This document shows positions 50,905-59,416 of a DNA stretch of 64,000 bases, piece after piece (the stretch's first letter is position 1; each line of letters opens with the position of its first letter). A program made the translations under genes and the position numbers. Where the stretch lies: the sequence record PV419677.1, one strand, 5' to 3'. Below the pieces are notes generated by a model. The model was not told the DNA's origin. It worked only from the letters and a program-made list of their open reading frames with translations, and did no database searches. The stretch comes from a phage.

Positions 50905-52965
50905 CTATGAAAGGAATTTAGGAGGAATAGCTTCCAAATTAATACAACTAGCAAGAATACCAAGCCCTTGATTGACTTTCTTCGTTACCCCAGAGGATGC
51001 AAACGATGCAAAGTCAACAGATTCTACTGGCTCTTCTGTTTCCTCGCCCTGATAAACGACAAGCTCACCAGTTTCCATCAACACATCACCATCATAGATA
51101 ACTGCATTTTCATCCAGTTGGTCCGTAGTCTGGATATCAGCTTCCAACATTTTGACGTTCGCGTTTCCTTGATACGAAGCATCAGTAATTTTGGTAATCT
51201 TAACTACAGTCCCACGAGGAAGAATAACTTCCTGCTCGGATGGGTTGCCTGACAATTCCCCAGGAACAATTACGTTAATTAAGTCCGCCCCAGAAATTTT
51301 CCAACCAACATGCATCATTACGTGGTCGCGGCGTGCTTCCGGCATATCTGGTAAAACAATTTCGTCATCAGCCTGGAAAGATGTCCCATCACGATAGTCC
51401 TGATGAACTGCAGCCATAGCAACGTTCGCCACCCAGCCACCAAAGATAATCGGTTTAAACGACGTTGATACATAGTTCCTGAAATAAAATAATTTAGATT
51501 TCTTAATTTTATCAAATGTAGGAACGTTTAAATATTGACCACGCCAAAGAGTTGTATTAGGTGGCAACTTATGTCCAATTTCAAAGGCCGAATCCAATTC
51601 CTTAATTGTTTCGACAACTCTGTCTAGATTTAGGAATTCAGCTTCTTCTTCATAATATTTGCCCATCAAATAATTATTAATATCGGCATAGTTTGCTCCA
51701 CAATAATCTGCAATTGCTTCTCGCTGACCATAATGGAAACGGTTGTCAGTATACCCTGCTGTGAAATTAAGAGTATTTTCTGATGCTTCTTCAGCAAAGT
51801 CTTTAACTGCAACACGAATGGCGCTTGTGTATTCTTTTTCCCAGAGCGAGGCTGCATAAGTGGCTGCATCCACGTTAGGAGGAGCATCATTCATTTTTCT
51901 TTCGATAAATGCGGCTTTGCGAAGGTTAAGAATCTCTGCGCATGATTCGGCAAAAATCTGCATCTGCTTCATACTACCAACTGGAGCACGTTTAAGTTCG
52001 CGATGCATACGATTAAAAATTGGGTCAGAGTCTTCAACACGAATTTCTTCTTTCCAAACACCATTTGCTCGCATAGCCGTATCTGCTGCGCGCATACGAG
52101 CCATAGTATTCGTTTCGGAAGGTCGAACAAAAATTTCCAGTTCTTCATAATCATCGATAAGTTCTGCCGTAGCCGGGCGACTAAACTTAGCAGCTTCTGC
52201 ATCGATTTCGTCCCAACCTTCTGGCACGGAATCCATTGGGGCGTACTGGGCTTGTGCAATAGCTCGGCGACTGATTTTAGTTTTCTGGGCAACAGCAGCA
52301 TCGGTCTTTTTGTTTGCTGCGTCAATCAGAATCTCGGCTGCAATTTCTTGTTTGGATACTTGTGCACCATTATCTTTATTGGTGAATACATCACCAACTT
52401 TAGTTTCGACTTTTTTATATTTCTCAGGGACTGGTGGCATACCATCAACCGAAAGTAGGTCAACACCCCTTTTGTACATAATTACATAAGCGTTCTTTTT
52501 ACCAAGGCCAGAAGCATTCGGAAGAACATGATAACGTCCGCTGGTTTTCATTTGAATCAGTCGATTCATAATACGAATAATAGCTTGGTCTTGTCCTTTC
52601 ATCTTTTTGGATGGGAAACGGAACAAGACTACATCAGGTTTGCCTAGTTTAATGCTTTCCCAGACTGTAGTAAAAATCAAGTTAATTGCATCAAGAGGTT
52701 TTTCACCTAAACCACCCTTCAGAGGAACAGCATGACCGTGTGAAGTTCCGGATAACAGGAATACCTCGGCAATTGCATCGCCGCGTTTATATTGTTTAAC
52801 TGTTTCTTTGCCCGTGAATTGCATCAAACGAGCCATAAGAGAATTGGTCCCAGGAACACCGAATTGCCAAACCTGTGGGACCTTGTATTTTGGATTCATA
52901 TTAATGACAGGATAACCGAAGGCTTCGATATATTTGTCAAAGAGTTCATTTAATTGTTCAGACAT
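50905..52965 (-). CDS. alt: Alt ADP-ribosyltransferase (virion-packaged)
   Basis: 686 aa (T4 682), position between 54 and 30; late promoter immediately upstream. Confidence 0.85.
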   Translation of the reverse strand: MSEQLNELFDKYIEAFGYPVINMNPKYKVPQVWQFGVPGTNSLMARLMQFTGKETVKQYKRGDAIAEVFLLSGTSHGHAVPLKGGLGEKPLDAINLIFTTVWESIKLGKPDVVLFRFPSKKMKGQDQAIIRIMNRLIQMKTSGRYHVLPNASGLGKKNAYVIMYKRGVDLLSVDGMPPVPEKYKKVETKVGDVFTNKDNGAQVSKQEIAAEILIDAANKKTDAAVAQKTKISRRAIAQAQYAPMDSVPEGWDEIDAEAAKFSRPATAELIDDYEELEIFVRPSETNTMARMRAADTAMRANGVWKEEIRVEDSDPIFNRMHRELKRAPVGSMKQMQIFAESCAEILNLRKAAFIERKMNDAPPNVDAATYAASLWEKEYTSAIRVAVKDFAEEASENTLNFTAGYTDNRFHYGQREAIADYCGANYADINNYLMGKYYEEEAEFLNLDRVVETIKELDSAFEIGHKLPPNTTLWRGQYLNVPTFDKIKKSKLFYFRNYVSTSFKPIIFGGWVANVAMAAVHQDYRDGTSFQADDEIVLPDMPEARRDHVMMHVGWKISGADLINVIVPGELSGNPSEQEVILPRGTVVKITKITDASYQGNANVKMLEADIQTTDQLDENAVIYDGDVLMETGELVVYQGEETEEPVESVDFASFASSGVTKKVNQGLGILASCINLEAIPPKFLS

Positions 52966-52990
52966 AATAGGTTCCTTATAAAATATGATG

Positions 52991-52998
52991 TATTTATA
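52991..52998 (-). promoter_or_regulatory. late promoter TATAAATA for alt
   Basis: Exact TATAAATA on minus strand 26 nt upstream of alt ATG. Confidence 0.55.
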
Positions 52999-53000
52999 CT

Positions 53001-53020
53001 AAAAAAGGGCCGAAGCCCTT
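53001..53020 (-). terminator. rho-independent terminator after gene 30
   Basis: Minus strand GGGC-TTCG-GCCC followed by T6. Confidence 0.55.
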
Positions 53021-53023
53021 TTG

Positions 53024-54556
53024 TTATTTTAACCCGGTCTTTGACCAGTCGCCAAATACATCTTCGAATGTGTCTGCATGGTCTTTATCGAAACGGAACC
53101 CTTTAATAATCGGCAGGAACAATGCAACCGTATTATCTTTACGAGTCTCGGAAGTCAACCAACCATTGCATTCACAGTCGGCAATCATTCCAACCAATTC
53201 ACCTTTACGAGCTTTAACCATCAAGGCTTCACGGTCCATTTTATGACGCTCCTCAATCGGAATAGTAACCCATTTTTTGGTTTTCTTATCTTTAACTTGA
53301 GTTGTGTCTTTAAAACCAGAACCACAGTTATTTGTAATCTTACCACAAGAAGAACGAAGCACCACACCGCCAATCTTATTCGGGTCTTTATCGTGCTCGT
53401 AATATCCAATGATTTCCATTGCAATATCAATTACTTCTTTGAACTTATATAGGTTCTTTGAGCGCTTGTTTTCCCAAATCGATGCCATGTTCTTAAGGAT
53501 AATACCTTCAAGACCTTCATCCACGTATTTCTTATAGATAACTTTCGCTTCATCAAGATTGTTAACAACATGGTTTTCAATCAGAATCATGCGGTCAAAA
53601 CCATGCAGCACCACGTTATCTGCAATCATTTTTTCCAGAACAGCAAAACGCACATCGTATTTCAACGGATTGAGAATCTTAACATCAGAATAGACTTCAA
53701 TCAGCGGAACATAATCCCAAACCTGGAATTTCATACAAGAAGCTTCTGCTGCAGAAATAGTTCCTTTCAATGATTTGTTTGCCATACCATTTGAAAAGGT
53801 TCTTGATTCAGCAGTTTCTTTTGCTTTGCTAAGTTCAGGCACATCGTCAAAAAGGAAGCCCAAACCGTCATTCTGGGGAGCTACTTTCTGTTCATGGTAT
53901 ACTAACTCGCCATCAATTAAAACGCCCTCAGGATGTCTCTCACGCGCTTCACGAGTAGCTTCAATCAATTCCTTTTTAAGGAGGTCAAGCTTGAGGTATT
54001 CATTACCAGCGCGGGATAACAATCGAACATCATCCAACTCATCGCCACGAACTTCTGCAAAACACCGAGCGCCATCGGCTTTCAATTGTGCAAAGGCCGG
54101 GAACTTAATGTTCTTAGCAATACCAGCTTCATCATAAGAAGAAGCGAGCATCTGCGGTTGTTCAGGAATTAAACCTTTCCAAACCTTATTCGCAATTGAT
54201 ACAGACGCACCACATTCCAGGTCACGCATCATCACGCGGCGAAGAACTTCAACATCATCTTTTTTACCATCTGCAATATAACCAGATAATTCCTCGATTG
54301 CCGCATTACCTGTTAATTTACGCGGGGCTAATGTGAATTCGATAAAGTCAAGCATATCATCGATATTCAGCATTCCAAAGCTTTGGGTAGTTAACCCAGC
54401 GTTTGGCCATTTCTTGATATAGAACTGGATGCCTTTGGAATATGTCAAACGATACACACGTTTAAGGGTTTCATTGTCAGAATACGATTCCAGGATAGCT
54501 TGTTTCTCTTTAGTGGAATCGGTTGCAGCAATTTCATTTAAAATATCTAAAATCAT
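53024..54556 (-). CDS. 30: ATP-dependent DNA ligase gp30
   Basis: 510 aa; MILDILNEIAATDSTKEKQAILE...AFAQLKADGARCFAEV (adenylation KxDG motif) matches recalled T4 ligase. Confidence 0.95.
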   Translation of the reverse strand: MILDILNEIAATDSTKEKQAILESYSDNETLKRVYRLTYSKGIQFYIKKWPNAGLTTQSFGMLNIDDMLDFIEFTLAPRKLTGNAAIEELSGYIADGKKDDVEVLRRVMMRDLECGASVSIANKVWKGLIPEQPQMLASSYDEAGIAKNIKFPAFAQLKADGARCFAEVRGDELDDVRLLSRAGNEYLKLDLLKKELIEATREARERHPEGVLIDGELVYHEQKVAPQNDGLGFLFDDVPELSKAKETAESRTFSNGMANKSLKGTISAAEASCMKFQVWDYVPLIEVYSDVKILNPLKYDVRFAVLEKMIADNVVLHGFDRMILIENHVVNNLDEAKVIYKKYVDEGLEGIILKNMASIWENKRSKNLYKFKEVIDIAMEIIGYYEHDKDPNKIGGVVLRSSCGKITNNCGSGFKDTTQVKDKKTKKWVTIPIEERHKMDREALMVKARKGELVGMIADCECNGWLTSETRKDNTVALFLPIIKGFRFDKDHADTFEDVFGDWSKTGLK

Positions 54557-54566
54557 TAATCACCTC

Positions 54567-54848
54567 TTAGTCGTTGGCTCTATTATATGCCACGTCTTCC
54601 AAAAGCAAATCCAACCGCTTATGATAAGTGAACACAAATTTAGTTGCCCCATCTGGTTTCATTTTGGTCATGAAGTGAACATAGATAAATCCTTGCTCAA
54701 CGCATTCACGCCAAACGGGGTTATCTTTAGCCGGATTAATATCAAACGAGTAATTATGATTCACATGACGAATAAACTGGTTAACATGACCGTAATCCAT
54801 CGTGGTAGTTGGACCACGGTCAGAAATAGTATGAACGACAAACATCAA
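54567..54848 (-). CDS. hypothetical protein (30.1 position)
   Basis: 93 aa ORF, synteny only. Confidence 0.45.
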   Translation of the reverse strand: MMFVVHTISDRGPTTTMDYGHVNQFIRHVNHNYSFDINPAKDNPVWRECVEQGFIYVHFMTKMKPDGATKFVFTYHKRLDLLLEDVAYNRAND

Positions 54849-55669
54849 TTACCCCCTTGGCCACCGGTCGGTTGATTGTACCAGTATTCAATACCAGTAC
54901 CTACACGCTGGCCATATTGATATGGATATCCTGGATTATATCCAGGAGTCCACGGTTGACCAGGCTGCCAGCCTTGCTGCATTTGTTGTTGAAGGCGTCG
55001 AGTTTCACGAAACAGCTCTTCCAGTTTACGGAGTTCATCTGGAGTGAATTCTGGTTTGACCGGTTCATCTTTGTGTTTCAGTTTAAGCTGTCCAGCAACA
55101 TCGTCCCAATTAAAAACTTTGGAAGCTGTTTTAGGAATAGCATCACGTTCGCCGCGGGCCATCCAATAAACCGGAACCTCAAGAATTTCACTCGCATGGT
55201 CGCAATGGTGTGCAAGGTCATCAATATAACAAATGACATTATATTTGTCTTTTGCCTTCTGAAACAAATCCTCTTTAGAGGCTGTATGACCACACATCAT
55301 CACTTCTTTAAACGCTCCAGGGAACAAAGCATTCAGGTTAAATTGACGATTCAAGCGTGCGTCAATGGAATCACCCAGGGCTGTAACAGCCACAAAATCA
55401 TATTGCTCTTTGAGGTTATTAATAACCCTTAATGCATCCGCATAAGGAGACAAATAGCGAATAAAGTCTGAACAGTTATATTTTTCAATTAACTGCGCGC
55501 CTAACTCTTCATCACAATTGAAAAGTTTACCAGGGGTCACAAATTTTTCATCCTGAATCATCTTAAGGATATGTTCCAGGGGTAAATTATATTTTTGGGC
55601 GAAATAAGGCAAGCCAGACTGCCATGACAAACATACGCCATCAATATCTGTTAAAATAACGGGTTTCAT
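54845..55669 (-). CDS. HAD-superfamily phosphatase-like protein with Gln/Pro/Gly/Tyr-rich C-terminal tail
   Basis: MKPVILTDIDGVCL (HAD motif I DxDG), VICYIDD (motif IV); last about 50 aa are low complexity (QQQMQQGWQPGQPWTPGYNPGYPYQYGQ...GGQGGN). Confidence 0.55.
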   Translation of the reverse strand: MKPVILTDIDGVCLSWQSGLPYFAQKYNLPLEHILKMIQDEKFVTPGKLFNCDEELGAQLIEKYNCSDFIRYLSPYADALRVINNLKEQYDFVAVTALGDSIDARLNRQFNLNALFPGAFKEVMMCGHTASKEDLFQKAKDKYNVICYIDDLAHHCDHASEILEVPVYWMARGERDAIPKTASKVFNWDDVAGQLKLKHKDEPVKPEFTPDELRKLEELFRETRRLQQQMQQGWQPGQPWTPGYNPGYPYQYGQRVGTGIEYWYNQPTGGQGGN

Positions 55670-56133
55670 AATGCATCTCTCAATTGGTTAAGTATGTCAA
55701 TAAATTCTTGTTCAGTCAATATTGTATCATGAACAGTAAGGTGGCTCGCCATCGAATGCTTTAAAACTTTGCCTTTTGTAGCTTGTAATGCGTCGCGGAA
55801 TCCTTTGTTTTGGAGCGCTGCTTCAAAATATGCACTTGTATACAGCTCTTTCCATGATGCAGAGTATCTTGAAAAGGGAATTCCAAGCCAGAAAAGCGTC
55901 CCACGGTCCGCAGCTCTTGCATAAGCTCTTCCACTTTGCTGGGCGGCCAATCCGGACATCCCAAATATACGTTTTTGTTGTTCATGATTTCTCACCTTGC
56001 ACCCTTGTAGGAAGCCTTCAAGACCCCCAAACTGGATACCCTCCATAACAAAAGGCCATTTGGCAAAGTTACTTAATGCACATGATGGCCACGGGAAATT
56101 GCTTCTTATTTCTAACTCAGACATTTTTGACAC
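55666..56133 (-). CDS. NADAR / YbiA (DUF1768)-like protein
   Basis: ALSNFAKWPFVMEGIQFGGLEGFLQGCK resembles the YbiA core DFSNFAAWP...F.TSEHYFQA.K; assignment by recalled motif only. Confidence 0.4.
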   Translation of the reverse strand: MSKMSELEIRSNFPWPSCALSNFAKWPFVMEGIQFGGLEGFLQGCKVRNHEQQKRIFGMSGLAAQQSGRAYARAADRGTLFWLGIPFSRYSASWKELYTSAYFEAALQNKGFRDALQATKGKVLKHSMASHLTVHDTILTEQEFIDILNQLRDAL

Positions 56134-56329
56134 TGATAATCTCTACATCAGCCCAATGACCATAACCAGGTAAACGGTCTTTAATAGATAATCCGCCGTC
56201 AGATTTCAGCATTTTAATTGTTTTAGTATATGGTTCAATATTTCGGGCCCATGGACTTACGTCAGTCACGCGATAAGTAACTTCAACCATTTCTGTTCCC
56301 AAAATTTTCTGAATCAGTTTCTTAAACAT
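56117..56329 (-). CDS. hypothetical protein (30.x cluster)
   Basis: 70 aa ORF, overlapping start/stop with neighbours. Confidence 0.4.
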   Translation of the reverse strand: MFKKLIQKILGTEMVEVTYRVTDVSPWARNIEPYTKTIKMLKSDGGLSIKDRLPGYGHWADVEIISVKNV

Positions 56330-56330
56330 A

Positions 56331-56525
56331 TTATCCTCGCTTTAAGCATTTGATTACAGACAACTCACCACCCATGCGAACGTCTTCAGTTCCATCAACC
56401 CACAAGACTGCATATGCTTCTTTAATTTGGGTATTGCCTAATTTAAACGCAGGCAGGACCTTTGAAATCATTCCAGGAATACCCACACCTTTTAACTGAA
56501 CAGTTTGTGATAAGAATAATTTCAT
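56331..56525 (-). CDS. hypothetical protein (30.x cluster)
   Basis: 64 aa ORF. Confidence 0.4.
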   Translation of the reverse strand: MKLFLSQTVQLKGVGIPGMISKVLPAFKLGNTQIKEAYAVLWVDGTEDVRMGGELSVIKCLKRG

Positions 56526-56812
56526 TAGAACCTCATCTGGAAACCGTGTGATTTAACATTACCGCCATTAATATCAGATGAATTAATTTCGCGCGCCACG
56601 GTTGGGTCAATATTAATGTCACGACTAAGCTTAGTGATTGCCAGAGTATCGCGTCCATTAACAGTCCGGAATTCTAGTGGGCAAACCACATCAACATAGT
56701 TCTTAATGGAATCACGTGTTGGTTCACACCCAGCAGGAACATTAGGGCCTTTTTTAGAGAGAACAACTTCACAGAAATTTTTACGTGTATCAAAGTAAGT
56801 AGTCATAAACAT
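56525..56812 (-). CDS. hypothetical protein (30.x cluster)
   Basis: ATG 56812 with SD GAGGA; GC hairpin GGGGGC-TTTC-GCCCCC (56827-56842) immediately upstream. Confidence 0.45.
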   Translation of the reverse strand: MFMTTYFDTRKNFCEVVLSKKGPNVPAGCEPTRDSIKNYVDVVCPLEFRTVNGRDTLAITKLSRDINIDPTVAREINSSDINGGNVKSHGFQMRF

Positions 56813-56852
56813 AGTATTTTCCTCAAGGGGGCTTTCGCCCCCCCATTTAAGA

Positions 56853-57218
56853 TTAGATATCAAATTCATTAAGAACTACATCAAAGATTGCTTCCAGGTG
56901 TTCAGGTTTTGCTTTGTTGCTCAGGATGTGACGAATCCAAGTTTTAACCAGAAGCTTGCGATTAACACCATTCCAGCAAGGATGGGTTCCTAAATCACGT
57001 TCACGGAAATCATCATCTAACGCGATTTTGAATACCGAGCCTTCCATCGTGATTGAAAGAGTGATACCATTTTCAAATCGCATATAAACGTAGTTAGGAG
57101 TCATATATTGTTCAATTTCACACACTGAACCGTTTTGATGTTTCCACAAGCAAATAACTTCAGAAGAACCTGGGATGCAGTTAGAAACATATTTGCGTTC
57201 AAAGTTGATGTAGTTCAT
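56853..57218 (-). CDS. hypothetical protein (30.x cluster)
   Basis: 121 aa ORF, SD GGAG. Confidence 0.5.
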   Translation of the reverse strand: MNYINFERKYVSNCIPGSSEVICLWKHQNGSVCEIEQYMTPNYVYMRFENGITLSITMEGSVFKIALDDDFRERDLGTHPCWNGVNRKLLVKTWIRHILSNKAKPEHLEAIFDVVLNEFDI

Positions 57219-57289
57219 TTTATTCTCCAGTTGTTTTCATTTGTTGGTACAGGTTTATAATATCATAACCTGTACCAAAGTAAACTGTT

Positions 57290-57658
57290 TTATGCGACTT
57301 TAATCCAATTATCTAAATTTAATTCACCCTTAGCTTTCATTTTTTCAATCAGAAGGTCTGCAGTGGTGCGACCATTTTGATACCATGTAACATCTTCAGA
57401 ATAACCAGTTTCTTCATCTTCATAGGTCTTACAACGAATCTTACCCAAAATCAAAGTTTTCAGTTCGTAGGTATCACCAGTAAAAAAGTTTGTTACCATA
57501 ATTTTCCAAGAGAAGTCATCAGAAGGACCTTCTGGAGTCATGCAACCTACAAATTCAAACTGCTCTTTATACAAGTGCCATTGCATCTCTTTAGTTTCGA
57601 TTGCTTTGTAGCCGTCGTGGTCTTTACCTTTGATGTATGAGTTAAGATTGATTTTCAT
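57290..57658 (-). CDS. hypothetical protein (30.x cluster)
   Basis: 122 aa ORF, SD GGAG, early promoter upstream. Confidence 0.5.
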   Translation of the reverse strand: MKINLNSYIKGKDHDGYKAIETKEMQWHLYKEQFEFVGCMTPEGPSDDFSWKIMVTNFFTGDTYELKTLILGKIRCKTYEDEETGYSEDVTWYQNGRTTADLLIEKMKAKGELNLDNWIKVA

Positions 57659-57699
57659 TTTATGCTCCAGTGTTTTATTGTGTAACTCAGTATGAAATC

Positions 57700-57729
57700 A
57701 TTATGCACTGGACCAACCCTGTTGTAAAC
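57700..57729 (-). promoter_or_regulatory. sigma70-type early promoter (GTTTAC, 18 nt, CATAAT)
   Basis: -35 at 57729-57724, -10 at 57705-57700; core identical to the promoter at 34170-34199. Confidence 0.5.
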
Positions 57730-57750
57730 CCCTTTATGGAAAATAAAAAA

Positions 57751-57770
57751 AGGGACTCCGAAGAGTCCCT
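57751..57770 (-). terminator. rho-independent terminator (minus strand)
   Basis: AGGGACTC-TTCG-GAGTCCCT followed by U-run on minus strand. Confidence 0.55.
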
Positions 57771-57774
57771 GAAC

Positions 57775-57936
57775 TTATGCTTTCGGCTTACCAAAGCAAG
57801 CTGCATCGGCACGCAATACCGCACGAGCACGAGCCTGAAGTTTATCAGTCACCTGATTGATTCGCTTGTTGGACGCACGCTTGTAACCAGCGCGTTTGGA
57901 GGAGTCATCAACAACTTTAACTTCTTTCTTAGCCAT
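57775..57936 (-). CDS. small basic protein (53 aa), not in ORF track
   Basis: Hand translation: MAKKEVKVVDDSSKRAGYKRASNKRINQVTDKLQARARAVLRADAACFGKPKA; followed by terminator. Confidence 0.4.
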   Translation of the reverse strand: MAKKEVKVVDDSSKRAGYKRASNKRINQVTDKLQARARAVLRADAACFGKPKA

Positions 57937-58325
57937 ATTAAATTCTCTTTAAAATAGAATGCAGGACTTATTGGCATTGCCTGCGCAAGCCCTCGAAGGG
58001 AACATTAGGTTTCGGATATTTAACGACAGGATAACCATAAACCTCGTCATCATAGCTCTTATCTGTTGCACACCGTTAGCTTAAAGGTTCCGGGTTCGAT
58101 TTCTCGAGGATAAGATATATACTGATGGATATATAGGCCTTGAGGCGTACTCCCGATTGGCCATCACCTCGGGGTAGCATGCACTTGCCGCTATAAAATA
58201 ACATTCAAGAGGTACACCGTAAAACTGCCGAGGTCTTAAAACTATAATGATTCGCAAATCATTAATCAGACAGTTCGACGGCTCCTCGATTTTAGCTCAC
58301 ACTAAGGCAGTGAATCTCCAATAAA
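57937..58325. other. ORF-free region (~390 bp) with tRNA-like T-arm fragment and several local inverted repeats
   Basis: No ORF with SD on either strand; CCGGGTTCGATT at 58081-58092 resembles a tRNA T-stem/loop without a complete cloverleaf. Confidence 0.3.
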
Positions 58326-58580
58326 TTACTTCAATGTTACCACAAAGTGACGAACTGCTTTTCGTGCAGCAGATGCCAGCGGCTTAGCAAATTTCAGTTC
58401 ATCTTTTGCTTCGAGCACTGCGCGAAGGTCGGTTTGAACCGGGTTAAGATGTTTGAAATACTGCAGAATTTCCAGTGCTTCGGCTTCAACATCAATAGAT
58501 GCGCCGTAGTTTTCGTGACCGTTATTCCATGCAGTGCGTTGCAGTTCGAGAGCGTGTTGTAATTGTTTGTTTAAAGACAT
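58326..58580 (-). CDS. rIII: rIII-like protein (lysis inhibition accessory)
   Basis: 84 aa from ATG 58580 (SD GAGG): MSLNKQLQHALELQRTAWNNGHENYG...; size and position between the 30.x cluster and gene 31 as T4 rIII. Confidence 0.55.
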   Translation of the reverse strand: MSLNKQLQHALELQRTAWNNGHENYGASIDVEAEALEILQYFKHLNPVQTDLRAVLEAKDELKFAKPLASAARKAVRHFVVTLK

Positions 58581-58720
58581 TTTAGAAGCCTCAATATGAG
58601 GTGAATATTTGGTGGACACGTTCTTCTGAATTTCACTTCCTTTCGGCAAGTCTCTCAGTTGTAGTCCACCGTTTAGGATTCTCCGGTTAACTAACTGGTC
58701 CGGCAGCCAATCCATATTAT

Positions 58721-58728
58721 TATTTATA
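58721..58728 (-). promoter_or_regulatory. late promoter TATAAATA (minus strand) upstream of rIII
   Basis: Exact TATAAATA on minus strand. Confidence 0.4.
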
Positions 58729-58737
58729 ACGCTAATT

Positions 58738-59085
58738 TTACTTATAAAGACAAGGAACAGCTTTATAATGACAGGTCACAAATTTCTGCTTAACTTCTTT
58801 AGCCTGCTTAAGTCCCAGTGCAACCAGAGGATGTGGAACGTTTGCAATCTTGCCAACCGGAAGAGGAGTCAAATCACCTACTTCGCAGAAGCCTTCAGGA
58901 ACATCCGGACCAACCGAAAATACTTCACACATCTCCGGGATTTCACCCTGATGGAGTTTTCCGATAACGATGCCTGATGCCGTAGTTTCTTCATCACCAG
59001 CTTGCTTTGGCTCAGAAACCAAAATAATATATTCACCTACTGCTTTAATTGGTAATTCCATATTTAATCCATGTTGTTTGGTCAT
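58738..59085 (-). CDS. 31: gp31 co-chaperonin (GroES analogue)
   Basis: 115 aa; [29 protein letters not shown]...[14 protein letters not shown] matches recalled T4 gp31. Confidence 0.9.
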
Positions 59086-59116
59086 GTATTAATAATAGCA
59101 TGCATTGTTTGAAGCA

Positions 59117-59416
59117 TTAAAGAACGAGCAGAGTCTCGGTCTGCAGTCCATTCACGGAAATCAATTTATTGAAACAGAATGAACGCCATTCATTAAGCTT
59201 GGTATCAAATACCCGGATATAGCTAACTGGTTCTTTATTGACTTCTGGTCCAGGGGCCTGGATTTCTTTATACGGAAGCAGGTCCAGGTCGCGAGTACAA
59301 GTCATACGACGAACACTGCCATCTGCTTTTTCAAACAGAACTTCGTGAAAGCCAACAGACAAAATAGTCTTGACTTTTTCACGGAGGCGAATTGTTTCTT
59401 GTTCAGTTAAAATCAT
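59117..59416 (-). CDS. hypothetical protein (31.1 position)
   Basis: 99 aa ORF, synteny. Confidence 0.5.
   Translation of the reverse strand: MILTEQETIRLREKVKTILSVGFHEVLFEKADGSVRRMTCTRDLDLLPYKEIQAPGPEVNKEPVSYIRVFDTKLNEWRSFCFNKLISVNGLQTETLLVL

What the first reader, a model, noticed from the sequence alone, without database searches (positions are those of the whole stretch)
55666..56133. NADAR/YbiA-like protein in the early accessory cluster, next to a HAD phosphatase, DNA ligase and Alt
The 155-aa ORF carries a YbiA/NADAR-like core. NADAR-family enzymes act on ADP-ribose-type adducts, and phage-encoded members have been proposed to counter ADP-ribosylating host defences. Its neighbours are a HAD-like phosphatase (54845-55669), DNA ligase (gene 30) and the ADP-ribosyltransferase Alt, so this block may be a nucleic-acid damage reversal or anti-defence module rather than a set of unrelated small genes.
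Basis: inference. Interest (0 to 1): 0.5.

Follow-up and report, generated by a model that had tools for sequence, protein, structure and literature searches.

The report
Phage anti-DarT enzyme AdfN (gp30.3)

Summary
The ORF is real. It is the ortholog of T4 gp30.3: 84% identical over all 152 residues with no gaps, and in the same gene order. Its true start is almost certainly the ATG at 56124, not the GTG at 56133.

Pfam files it under Phage_30_3 (PF08010, E 1.9e-63), not NADAR. Three tests still place it in the NADAR superfamily:
- A profile-profile comparison with E. coli YbiA gives 93.7% probability.
- Foldseek returns the three solved NADAR structures as its top three hits.

The catalytic residues E36 and K43 are present, as is the phage-type H123.

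T4 gp30.3 was published as AdfN in 2024-2025. It is a guanine-ADP-ribose DNA glycohydrolase that is necessary and sufficient to overcome DarTG1.

The "module" idea is not supported:
- A T4 transposon screen under DarTG1 depletes 30.3 (log2FC -7.25) but not 30.2, 30.1 or alt.
- 61 of 87 loci with a gp30.3-type NADAR lack the HAD gene within about 6 kb. Ligase and alt homologs turned up only in loci that have it.
- alt sits behind a terminator and has its own late promoter.

One small open lead is the upstream 70-aa gp30.4, which is confined to T-even phages.

The parts
55666..56124 (-). adfN / gene 30.3 coding sequence: 152 aa plus stop, start ATG at 56124. A stand-alone NADAR-fold ADP-ribosyl-guanine DNA glycohydrolase.
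56125..56133 (-). Probably not translated as part of AdfN; they lie inside gene 30.4.
   Evidence: Homologs and annotated T4 gp30.3 start at MSELEIR; sequence read.
56017..56019 (-). Codon GAA = Glu36, a catalytic residue (E36A weakens T4 AdfN).
   Evidence: Read from the sequence. Invariant in 52/52 diverse homologs. Aligns with the Glu of the YbiA 'SEHYFQAQK' motif. Mutant data in PMC11825919.
55996..55998 (-). Codon AAG = Lys43, a catalytic / ADP-ribose-contacting residue (K43A weakens T4 AdfN).
   Evidence: Read from the sequence. K in 46/52 and R in 4/52 homologs. Aligns with the YbiA Lys. Mutant data in PMC11825919.
55756..55758 (-). Codon CAT = His123, the signature residue of phage (gp30.3-type) NADARs in the last strand. 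It replaces the Glu of YbiA-type and the Asp of DarG1-type NADARs.
   Evidence: Invariant in 52/52 homologs. Aligns with the Glu of YbiA 'LVEHT'. Family distinction stated in PMC11125620 and PMC12945103.
55669..55713 (-). Residues 138-152, the C-terminal helix. It is lost in the frameshifted, DarTG1-sensitive RB69 allele and is intact here.
   Evidence: The model has a helix at residues 141-154 in 155-aa numbering. RB69 gp30.3 stops at residue 137, while the window protein runs to 152. The truncation reduces activity.
56117..56329 (-). Gene 30.4 (70 aa, function unknown). Its stop overlaps the adfN start by 8 nt (ATGTCTGA). This is expression context and a possible helper, not a demonstrated part of the mechanism.
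   Evidence: phrog_2042. Found directly upstream of the NADAR gene in all 15 Tequatrovirus/RB69 loci and in none of the 72 other NADAR-bearing loci. T4 30.4 insertions are depleted under DarTG1, log2FC -1.79, adjusted p 0.014.
54845..55669 (-). Gene 30.2, a HAD-superfamily phosphatase-like protein. Its ATG overlaps the adfN stop by 4 nt (ATGA). A neighbour, not part of the anti-DarT function.
   Evidence: Invariant D8xD10, K132 and D150-D151, with T96 nearly invariant. Model pLDDT 87; best Foldseek hit is 5'(3')-deoxyribonucleotidase 2jao at E 2.4e-8. No fitness effect under DarTG1 in T4.
53001..53022 (-). Intrinsic terminator hairpin (GGGC-TTCG-GCCC followed by T6) immediately after the ligase stop. 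It closes the 30.x-30 transcription unit.
52991..52998 (-). TATAAATA, the T4 late-promoter consensus, 25 nt upstream of the alt ATG (52965). It implies alt is transcribed separately from the 30.x genes.
   Evidence: Sequence. That TATAAATA is the T4 late-promoter consensus is established knowledge, not tested here.

Best explanation
The gene is adfN (T4 gene 30.3) of a Tequatrovirus. It encodes a 152-aa protein that consists only of the NADAR catalytic core.

Proposed mechanism: when the phage infects a cell carrying the DarTG1 toxin-antitoxin defence, the DarT1 toxin attaches ADP-ribose to guanine bases of phage DNA and blocks replication. AdfN hydrolyses the bond between guanine and ADP-ribose, using Glu36, Lys43 and the phage-specific His123. 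This restores normal guanine, so replication can proceed. It behaves as an 'orphan antitoxin' that mimics the host's own DarG1.

Shown here: orthology to T4 gp30.3, the NADAR fold, presence of the catalytic residues, and an intact C-terminal helix. Shown by others for the T4 ortholog: the enzyme activity, guanine (not thymine) specificity, and necessity and sufficiency against DarTG1. Inferred: that this 84%-identical allele has the same activity.

The gene sits in a tightly packed co-directional run (30.8 to 30) in which most neighbouring genes overlap or abut, but it acts independently of gp30.2, the ligase and Alt.
For: - Family: PF08010 at E 1.9e-63.
- Orthology: 84% identity to T4 gp30.3 over 152/152 residues with no gaps. 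Gene order 30.8-30.7-30.6-30.5-30.4-30.3-30.2-30.1-30-alt matches T4.
- Profile link: hhalign of a 52-sequence family profile against E. coli YbiA gives 93.7% probability, E 1.8e-7, over 137 columns. It aligns E36, K43 and H123 with the YbiA Glu, Lys and Glu. HMM against PDB sequences hits YbiA at E 0.005-0.007. 7 of 52 family members also touch Pfam NADAR.
- Conservation: N19, E36, H123 and T137 are invariant in 52 diverse homologs.
- Literature, PMC11825919: T4 30.3 = AdfN. Deleting it makes T4 and T2 unable to plaque on DarTG1 cells. Plasmid expression rescues RB69. E36A and K43A weaken it. Purified protein removes ADP-ribose from DarT1-modified DNA. It does not counter DarTG2.
- Literature, PMC11125620 and PMC12945103: T4 phage NADAR hydrolyses guanosine-ADPr in vitro but not thymidine-ADPr.
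- Screen: HIDEN-SEQ under DarTG1 gives 30.3 log2FC -7.25, adjusted p 0.
Against: - No experiment exists on this particular allele. It differs from T4 AdfN at 24 of 152 residues.
- A direct Pfam NADAR scan does not hit it. NCBIfam and PADLOC give nothing.
- T4 AdfN does not rescue uninfected E. coli from DarT1, and only partly rescues the non-T-even phages T5 and Bas25. The enzyme-alone picture is therefore incomplete: an unidentified T-even factor contributes.
- NADARs also remove guanosine-ADPr from RNA in vitro, so DNA de-modification may not be the only role.
Confidence: 0.9

Rival explanations
1. The first reader's module hypothesis: gp30.3, the HAD phosphatase gp30.2, DNA ligase and Alt work together as one nucleic-acid damage-reversal or anti-defence unit. 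For example, NADAR would remove the adduct, the HAD enzyme would process a product or DNA end, and the ligase would seal.
For: - The genes are adjacent and co-directional, with overlapping stop/start codons between 30.3 and 30.2.
- The 30.3-30.2-ligase order recurs in 26 of 87 loci, across Tequatrovirus, Mosigvirus, and Acinetobacter and Klebsiella (KP15) T4-like phages.
- gp30.2 and gp30.3 have almost the same distribution in phage records, 1439 versus 1511.
- T4 AdfN needs an unidentified T-even factor.
- In Vibrio phage nt-1, a different HAD nucleotidase (NT5C family) overlaps the NADAR gene.
Against: - T4 transposon screen under DarTG1: 30.2 log2FC -0.12 (p 0.61), 30.1 -0.01, alt -0.01, alt.1 +0.02, against 30.3 -7.25.
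- NADAR hydrolysis regenerates an intact base, so no nick or phosphate end needs healing (mechanism as described).
- 61 of 87 NADAR loci have no gp30.2 within about 6 kb, and ligase or alt homologs were found only in loci that do have it. No other partner recurs.
- In every locus that has both, gp30.2 lies just upstream of the ligase, while the distance from gp30.3 to gp30.2 varies from an overlap to about 1.2 kb.
- In KVP40-like Vibrio phages the true gp30.2 homolog lies elsewhere.
- alt follows a terminator and has a late-promoter motif. In some phages it is on the opposite strand.
Confidence: 0.04
2. AdfN's main or additional job is housekeeping rather than counter-defence. It would remove guanine-ADP-ribose from RNA or DNA created by other ADP-ribosyltransferases, including off-target products of the phage's own Alt, ModA and ModB, or by as yet unknown RNA/DNA-ADP-ribosylating defences.
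For: - NADARs of all families remove guanosine-ADPr from RNA as well as DNA in vitro (PMC12945103).
- Nearly all T4-like phages carry the gene, although DarTG1 is not universal in hosts (the latter from general knowledge).
- Alt-family ADP-ribosyltransferases are encoded nearby.
- The authors themselves suggest further ADP-ribosylating defences may be targets.
Against: - The gene is dispensable on E. coli K-12 lacking DarTG1: 27 of 28 insertion sites are tolerated.
- The one condition in which it is known to become essential is DarTG1.
- Alt, ModA and ModB are known as protein-targeting enzymes, not guanine-targeting ones (general knowledge, not tested here).
Confidence: 0.1
3. It is a YbiA-type metabolic N-glycosidase that hydrolyses reactive riboflavin-pathway intermediates, as annotated for E. 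coli YbiA.
For: YbiA is the best structural and sequence match. RefSeq names E. coli YbiA 'N-glycosidase YbiA'.
Against: - The family-defining last-strand residue is His, not the Glu of the YbiA family, and it is invariant in 52/52 homologs.
- Identity to YbiA is only about 21%.
- The T4 ortholog has a demonstrated DNA de-ADP-ribosylation role.
- YbiA itself also hydrolyses guanosine-ADPr in vitro, so resemblance to YbiA does not argue for a metabolic role.
Confidence: 0.02

Closest known systems
AdfN(T4) = bacteriophage T4 gp30.3, anti-DarT factor NADAR (Johannesman et al., Nat Commun 2025, PMC11825919; Toxins 2024, PMC11125620)
   Same: Ortholog: 84% identity over the full 152 aa with no gaps. 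Same flanking genes (30.4 upstream, 30.2 downstream) with the same overlapping junctions. E36, K43 and H123 are present and the C-terminal helix is intact.
   Different: 24 substitutions, including 4 of the last 8 residues. Nothing suggests a different function. The window phage also lacks alt.1 further downstream.
RB69 gp30.3 (naturally truncated, inactive allele)
   Same: 84% identical over residues 1-137, with the same synteny including 30.4 and 30.2.
   Different: RB69 has a frameshift that removes the last 15 residues (the C-terminal helix) and is DarTG1-sensitive. The window allele is full length.
DarG1, the DarT1-associated NADAR antitoxin (e.g. Geobacter/Trichlorobacter lovleyi NADAR, PDB 8bat)
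   Different: DarG1 has an N-terminal extension (219 aa against 152 aa). It has Asp where AdfN has His123. It is encoded next to its toxin DarT1 and protects uninfected cells. AdfN is a stand-alone phage gene and T4 AdfN does not rescue uninfected cells.
E. coli YbiA (PDB 2b3w), the YbiA-type NADAR / N-glycosidase
   Different: About 21% identity. It has Glu rather than His in the last strand. It is a host housekeeping gene beside the dinG locus, in what PMC11125620 describes as a LexA-controlled operon, and it cannot counter DarT1 in vivo.
AdfN(Bas32) and AdfN(Bas60), NADARs of T5-like and Vequintavirinae phages
   Same: Phage-encoded NADARs that neutralise DarTG1 by the same chemistry.
   Different: They belong to other NADAR clades, were acquired independently, and work without any extra phage factor.
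AdfM (T4 Tk.4), a macrodomain anti-DarTG2 factor
   Same: Same strategy: an orphan antitoxin-like hydrolase carried by T4 that is proposed to reverse DNA ADP-ribosylation.
   Different: It has an unrelated fold (macrodomain) and counters thymidine ADP-ribosylation by DarT2. Whether a tk.4 homolog lies in this window was not examined.

Membership tests
NADAR superfamily (YbiA fold) | YbiA fold: an alpha-helical core flanked by small beta-sheets | tested here: met
NADAR superfamily (YbiA fold) | Sequence-profile relationship to NADAR/DUF1768 (Pfam PF08719) | tested here: inconclusive
   A direct hmmscan of this protein gives no PF08719 hit at E<=0.1. 7 of 52 homologs hit PF08719; where bit scores were listed (three long relatives) they fall below the gathering score, and the best E-value among the 52 is 3.5e-6. 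A profile-profile comparison with YbiA is positive: 93.7% probability, E 1.8e-7, 137 columns. HMM against YbiA gives E 0.005. The relationship is real but beyond the reach of the Pfam NADAR model, which is why Pfam keeps a separate family.
NADAR superfamily (YbiA fold) | Conserved catalytic Glu and Lys of the E-x3-Q-x2-K motif | tested here: met
   E36 and K43 are present. E36 is invariant and K43 is K/R in 50/52 homologs. Both align with the YbiA residues.
NADAR superfamily (YbiA fold) | ADP-ribosyl-guanine glycohydrolase activity | not testable with these tools
   Shown in vitro for T4 gp30.3. Inferred for this allele.
Phage NADAR / gp30.3 / AdfN(T4) family (Pfam PF08010) | Match to PF08010 above the gathering score | tested here: met
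   212.8 bits against a cut-off of 36, E 1.9e-63, covering profile positions 2-138 of 138.
Phage NADAR / gp30.3 / AdfN(T4) family (Pfam PF08010) | Histidine in the last strand, in place of the Glu (YbiA type) or Asp (DarG1 type) | tested here: met
   H123 is invariant in 52/52 homologs and aligns with the YbiA Glu. The criterion comes from PMC11125620.
Phage NADAR / gp30.3 / AdfN(T4) family (Pfam PF08010) | Core domain only, full length with the C-terminal helix (needed for full activity) | tested here: met
   152 aa, with a C-terminal helix in the model. It is not truncated like RB69.
Phage NADAR / gp30.3 / AdfN(T4) family (Pfam PF08010) | Confers resistance to DarTG1 | not testable with these tools
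   Shown for T4 and T2.
DarG1 antitoxin (DarT1-linked, BC4488-type NADAR) | Encoded next to a DarT1 toxin gene | tested here: not met
   The flanking genes are 30.4 and 30.2. The only ADP-ribosyltransferase nearby is Alt (PF03496), 2.7 kb away behind a terminator.
DarG1 antitoxin (DarT1-linked, BC4488-type NADAR) | Asp in the last strand and an N-terminal extension | tested here: not met
   It has His123 instead. It has no extension: 152 aa against 219 aa for 8bat.
YbiA-type N-glycosidase | Glu in the last strand | tested here: not met
   The YbiA 'LVEHT' Glu aligns with His123.
HAD superfamily phosphatase (neighbour gp30.2) | Motif I DxD, motif II Thr/Ser, motif III Lys, motif IV acidic pair, on a Rossmann-like HAD fold | tested here: met
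   D8, D10, K132, D150 and D151 are invariant, and T96 is at least 90% conserved, in 27 homologs. Model pLDDT 87. 108 PDB HAD-family hits at E<=1e-3, the best being 5'(3')-deoxyribonucleotidase 2jao at 2.4e-8. No Pfam or NCBIfam model hits it directly.

The most novel reading that the evidence does not exclude
The 70-aa gp30.4 (56117..56329) could be the unidentified 'T-even factor' that T4 AdfN needs for full activity. Its stop codon overlaps the adfN start.

In favour:
- It is found directly upstream of the NADAR gene in all 15 Tequatrovirus/RB69 loci and in none of the 72 other NADAR-bearing loci. That matches the phage group in which T4 AdfN works fully.
- RB69, which T4 AdfN rescues completely, has it.
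- T4 30.4 insertions are significantly depleted under DarTG1 (log2FC -1.79, adjusted p 0.014).
- The authors of that screen argue against widespread polar effects.

The simpler alternative is that insertions in 30.4 reduce expression of adfN, whose ribosome-binding region lies inside 30.4.
Probability: 0.12. Interest if true: 0.5.

Novelty: already known. Interest (0 to 1): 0.12.

Why it matters
It matters mainly for annotation. Public records of closely related phages label this gene 'hypothetical protein' or mislabel it (for example 'anti-CBASS protein acb1' or 'swarming motility YbiA-like protein'). It can be named adfN with confidence. Because the allele is full length, this phage is predicted to resist DarTG1-carrying hosts, which is relevant to host-range prediction. 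There is no new biology in the gene itself. The only open question it touches is which T-even factor helps AdfN.

Tried and rejected
- A direct Pfam scan for NADAR gave no hit; only PF08010 matched.
- NCBIfam and PADLOC gave nothing for gp30.3 or gp30.2.
- A single-sequence phmmer search against PDB gave nothing.
- The word-indexed homolog search returned only close T4-like relatives. The exhaustive representative search was needed to reach diverse members.
- The sigma-70 promoter scan of 52900-59200 found no more sites than shuffled sequence (18 against 16.8 +/- 4.6), so no promoter is claimed for the 30.x cluster.
- I considered gp30.2 as the missing AdfN helper, because its start overlaps the adfN stop (ATGA). 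I rejected it because T4 30.2 insertions show no DarTG1 phenotype, most NADAR loci lack it, and where present it sits just upstream of the ligase.
- I considered the deoxyribonucleotidase next to the NADAR gene in Vibrio phage nt-1 as a gp30.2 ortholog. It is not: it belongs to Pfam NT5C and shares only the N-terminal HAD motif with gp30.2. The true gp30.2 homolog of KVP40-like phages lies elsewhere.
- Clustering all ORFs within 2.5 kb of the NADAR gene in 86 loci found no recurrent partner outside the T4-type synteny; the largest gp30.2-independent cluster covers 7 loci.
- Domain fusions in long relatives (GDSL lipase, leucine-rich repeats, tandem NADAR copies) show no link to HAD, ligase or ADP-ribosyltransferase domains.
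Full report
**What is there.** The window is part of a T4-like phage (Tequatrovirus). The 2.8 kb around the finding is 98% identical to Escherichia phage vB_EcoM_RZ, and hundreds of T-even genomes match. The minus strand carries a tightly packed run of genes that Pfam, PHROGs and comparison with annotated T4 identify as follows:

| Gene | Coordinates |
|---|---|
| 30.8 | 57290-57658 |
| 30.7 | 56853-57218 |
| 30.6 | 56525-56869 |
| 30.5 | 56331-56525 |
| 30.4 | 56117-56329 |
| 30.3 | 55666-56124 |
| 30.2 | 54845-55669 |
| 30.1 | 54567-54848 |
| 30 (DNA ligase) | 53024-54556 |
| alt | 50905-52965 |

The ORF in the finding is gene 30.3: Pfam PF08010 'Phage_30_3' at E 1.9e-63 and phrog_652. It is 84% identical to T4 gp30.3 over all 152 residues with no gaps.

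**Start codon.** The GTG at 56133 is just the first start codon after the upstream stop. Homologs and the T4 annotation begin at MSELEIR, which is the ATG at 56124. That ATG overlaps the stop of 30.4 by 8 nt, and the 30.3 stop overlaps the 30.2 ATG by 4 nt.

Pfam NADAR (PF08719) does not hit this protein at E<=0.1, NCBIfam and PADLOC are silent, and phmmer against PDB finds nothing.
- A profile of nine close homologs hits E. coli YbiA at E 0.0067 over the SNFA...E..Q..K motif.
- An exhaustive search found 1082 family representatives. A 52-sequence alignment of diverse members (30% mean column identity) aligns to E. coli YbiA by hhalign with 93.7% probability and E 1.8e-7 over 137 columns.
- 7 of the 52 members also touch PF08719.

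**Catalytic residues.** Glu36 and Lys43 are present and align with the YbiA residues. His123 aligns with the last-strand Glu of YbiA. N19, E36, H123 and T137 are invariant in all 52 homologs, and K43 is K or R in 50 of them. A His at this position is the published signature of phage NADARs, against Glu in the YbiA type and Asp in the DarG1 type (PMC11125620; PMC12945103).

**What it does is already published.**
- Johannesman et al. (Nat Commun 2025, PMC11825919) mapped DarTG1 resistance of T-even phages to gene 30.3 and renamed it adfN (anti-DarT factor NADAR). Deleting it from T4 or T2 abolishes plaquing on DarTG1 cells. Plasmid expression fully rescues RB69. E36A and K43A weaken it. Purified protein removes ADP-ribose from DarT1-modified DNA. 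It does not counter the thymidine-modifying DarTG2.
- Two further papers show that T4 phage NADAR hydrolyses guanosine-ADP-ribose in vitro but not thymidine-ADP-ribose.
- RB69 is sensitive because a frameshift removes the last 15 residues. I confirmed that RB69 gp30.3 ends at residue 137, whereas the window protein is full length with the C-terminal helix.
- A T4 transposon screen (HIDEN-SEQ preprint) found 30.3 dispensable on K-12 but lost under DarTG1. In its supplementary table, 30.3 has log2FC -7.25 and adjusted p 0.

The window gene is therefore an active-type adfN allele. Its activity is inferred from orthology and conserved residues, not measured.

**The 'module' idea.** The neighbour calls are correct.
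- gp30.2 has no Pfam or NCBIfam hit, but it has the HAD motifs: D8xD10, K132 and D150-D151 invariant and T96 nearly so, in 27 homologs.
- Its confident model (pLDDT 87) matches 108 HAD structures. The best match is 5'(3')-deoxyribonucleotidase (there is also a weak sequence hit to the same entry, 2jao).
- The ligase and Alt are confirmed.

Functional coupling, however, is not supported.
1. In the DarTG1 screen of T4, 30.2 (-0.12, p 0.61), 30.1 (-0.01), alt (-0.01) and alt.1 (+0.02) are neutral.
2. NADAR hydrolysis regenerates the base, which leaves nothing for a phosphatase or ligase to repair (an inference from the mechanism described).
3. I collected 87 loci with a gp30.3-type NADAR: 80 IMG/VR contigs plus seven annotated phage regions. 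Only 26 have gp30.2 within about 6 kb. In each of these, gp30.2 lies just upstream of the ligase, while its distance from gp30.3 ranges from an overlap to about 1.2 kb. In the other 61 loci no gp30.2, ligase or Alt homolog was detected, and no other partner recurs.
4. gp30.2 and gp30.3 have nearly the same distribution across phage records (1439 against 1511, with similar host genera). That is what one expects of two near-core T4-like genes.
5. In the window, a strong hairpin (GGGCTTCGGCCC followed by T6) comes right after the ligase stop. A TATAAATA motif, the T4 late-promoter consensus, then precedes alt. alt is therefore a separate transcription unit. In some Acinetobacter and Aeromonas T4-like phages it even lies on the opposite strand.

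**Residual open point.** T4 AdfN does not protect uninfected cells from DarT1 and only partly rescues T5 and Bas25, so a T-even factor is thought to assist it. gp30.2 is excluded by the screen.

I noticed that 30.4 insertions are modestly but significantly depleted under DarTG1 (log2FC -1.79, adjusted p 0.014). gp30.4 occurs only in Tequatrovirus/RB69-type loci, always overlapping the adfN start (15 of 87 loci), and RB69 has it. The screen's authors argue that polar effects are uncommon. Even so, the adfN ribosome-binding region lies inside 30.4, so reduced adfN expression remains the simpler reading. I give the helper idea about 12%.

**Verdict.** The module hypothesis is not supported. Novelty: already known. 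Interest is low.

Noticed in passing
window 56117-56329 (-), gene 30.4: This 70-aa ORF of unknown function overlaps the adfN start by 8 nt. It is found only in Tequatrovirus/RB69-type loci (15 of 87 NADAR loci) and always in this position. In published T4 transposon data, 30.4 insertions are depleted under DarTG1 (log2FC -1.79, adjusted p 0.014). That is either polarity on adfN or a helper role.
   Followed up: partly
window 55761-55985 (-), nested in gene 30.3 in another frame: This 74-codon ORF corresponds to T4 gene 30.3' (Pfam PF11097 DUF2883, E 2.5e-25). It is only 59% identical to the T4 version, while the overlapping adfN frame is 84% identical. The frame stays open for 76 codons in nearly all Tequatrovirus loci but not consistently in more distant relatives. 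Constraint on its own sequence looks weak, and it may not encode a functional protein.
   Followed up: partly
window 52966-53023, between ligase and alt: T4 and RB69 have a small gene alt.1 (189 nt) here. The window has only a 58-nt spacer, which holds an intrinsic terminator and a TATAAATA late-promoter motif.
   Followed up: partly
window 54845-55669 (-), gene 30.2; loci L003, L004, L020-L023, L034, L052, L061, L062, L078, L084, L085: The HAD-fold gp30.2 (closest structures: 5'(3')-deoxyribonucleotidases) lies just upstream of the DNA ligase in every locus where both were found, usually adjacent or separated only by gp30.1. This includes distant Acinetobacter and Klebsiella T4-like phages. 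The HAD-ligase pairing is more persistent than the NADAR-HAD pairing and is unexplained. The C-terminal part (about residues 235-274), rich in Q/P/G/Y, is variable and predicted to be disordered. T4 30.2 is non-essential on K-12.
   Followed up: partly
L007 6001-6952 (Vibrio phage nt-1): The gp30.3-type NADAR gene is overlapped at its 3' end by a deoxyribonucleotidase of the NT5C family (Pfam PF06941, E 4.4e-11). This is not an ortholog of gp30.2, and no ligase is nearby. It is a second, apparently independent, pairing of a NADAR with a HAD nucleotidase. The true gp30.2 homolog of a KVP40-like phage sits beside a nicotinamide phosphoribosyltransferase gene and radical-SAM genes.
   Followed up: partly
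proteins P0022, P0025, P0044, P0129 (metagenomic relatives): The gp30.3-type NADAR domain also occurs in longer proteins. Some appear to carry two or three partial or tandem copies (P0022, P0025). One is fused to a GDSL lipase/acylhydrolase domain (P0044) and one to BspA-type leucine-rich repeats (P0129). Their source organisms and functions are unknown.
   Followed up: no
window 57751-57770 (-): A strong terminator-like hairpin (AGGGACTC-TTCG-GAGTCCCT followed by a T-run) lies just downstream of a 53-aa ORF that resembles the annotated T4 gp30.9. It is followed by promoter-like hexamers before 30.8. This may mark the 5' boundary of the 30.8-to-ligase transcription unit. Promoter-like sites in the region are no more frequent than in shuffled sequence.
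   Followed up: no
public phage records matching window 55666-56124: Orthologs of adfN are mostly annotated 'hypothetical protein'. A few appear mislabelled, for example 'anti-CBASS protein acb1' in Klebsiella phage Roth17 and 'swarming motility YbiA-like protein' in Rhizobium phage RHph_Y68.
   Followed up: no
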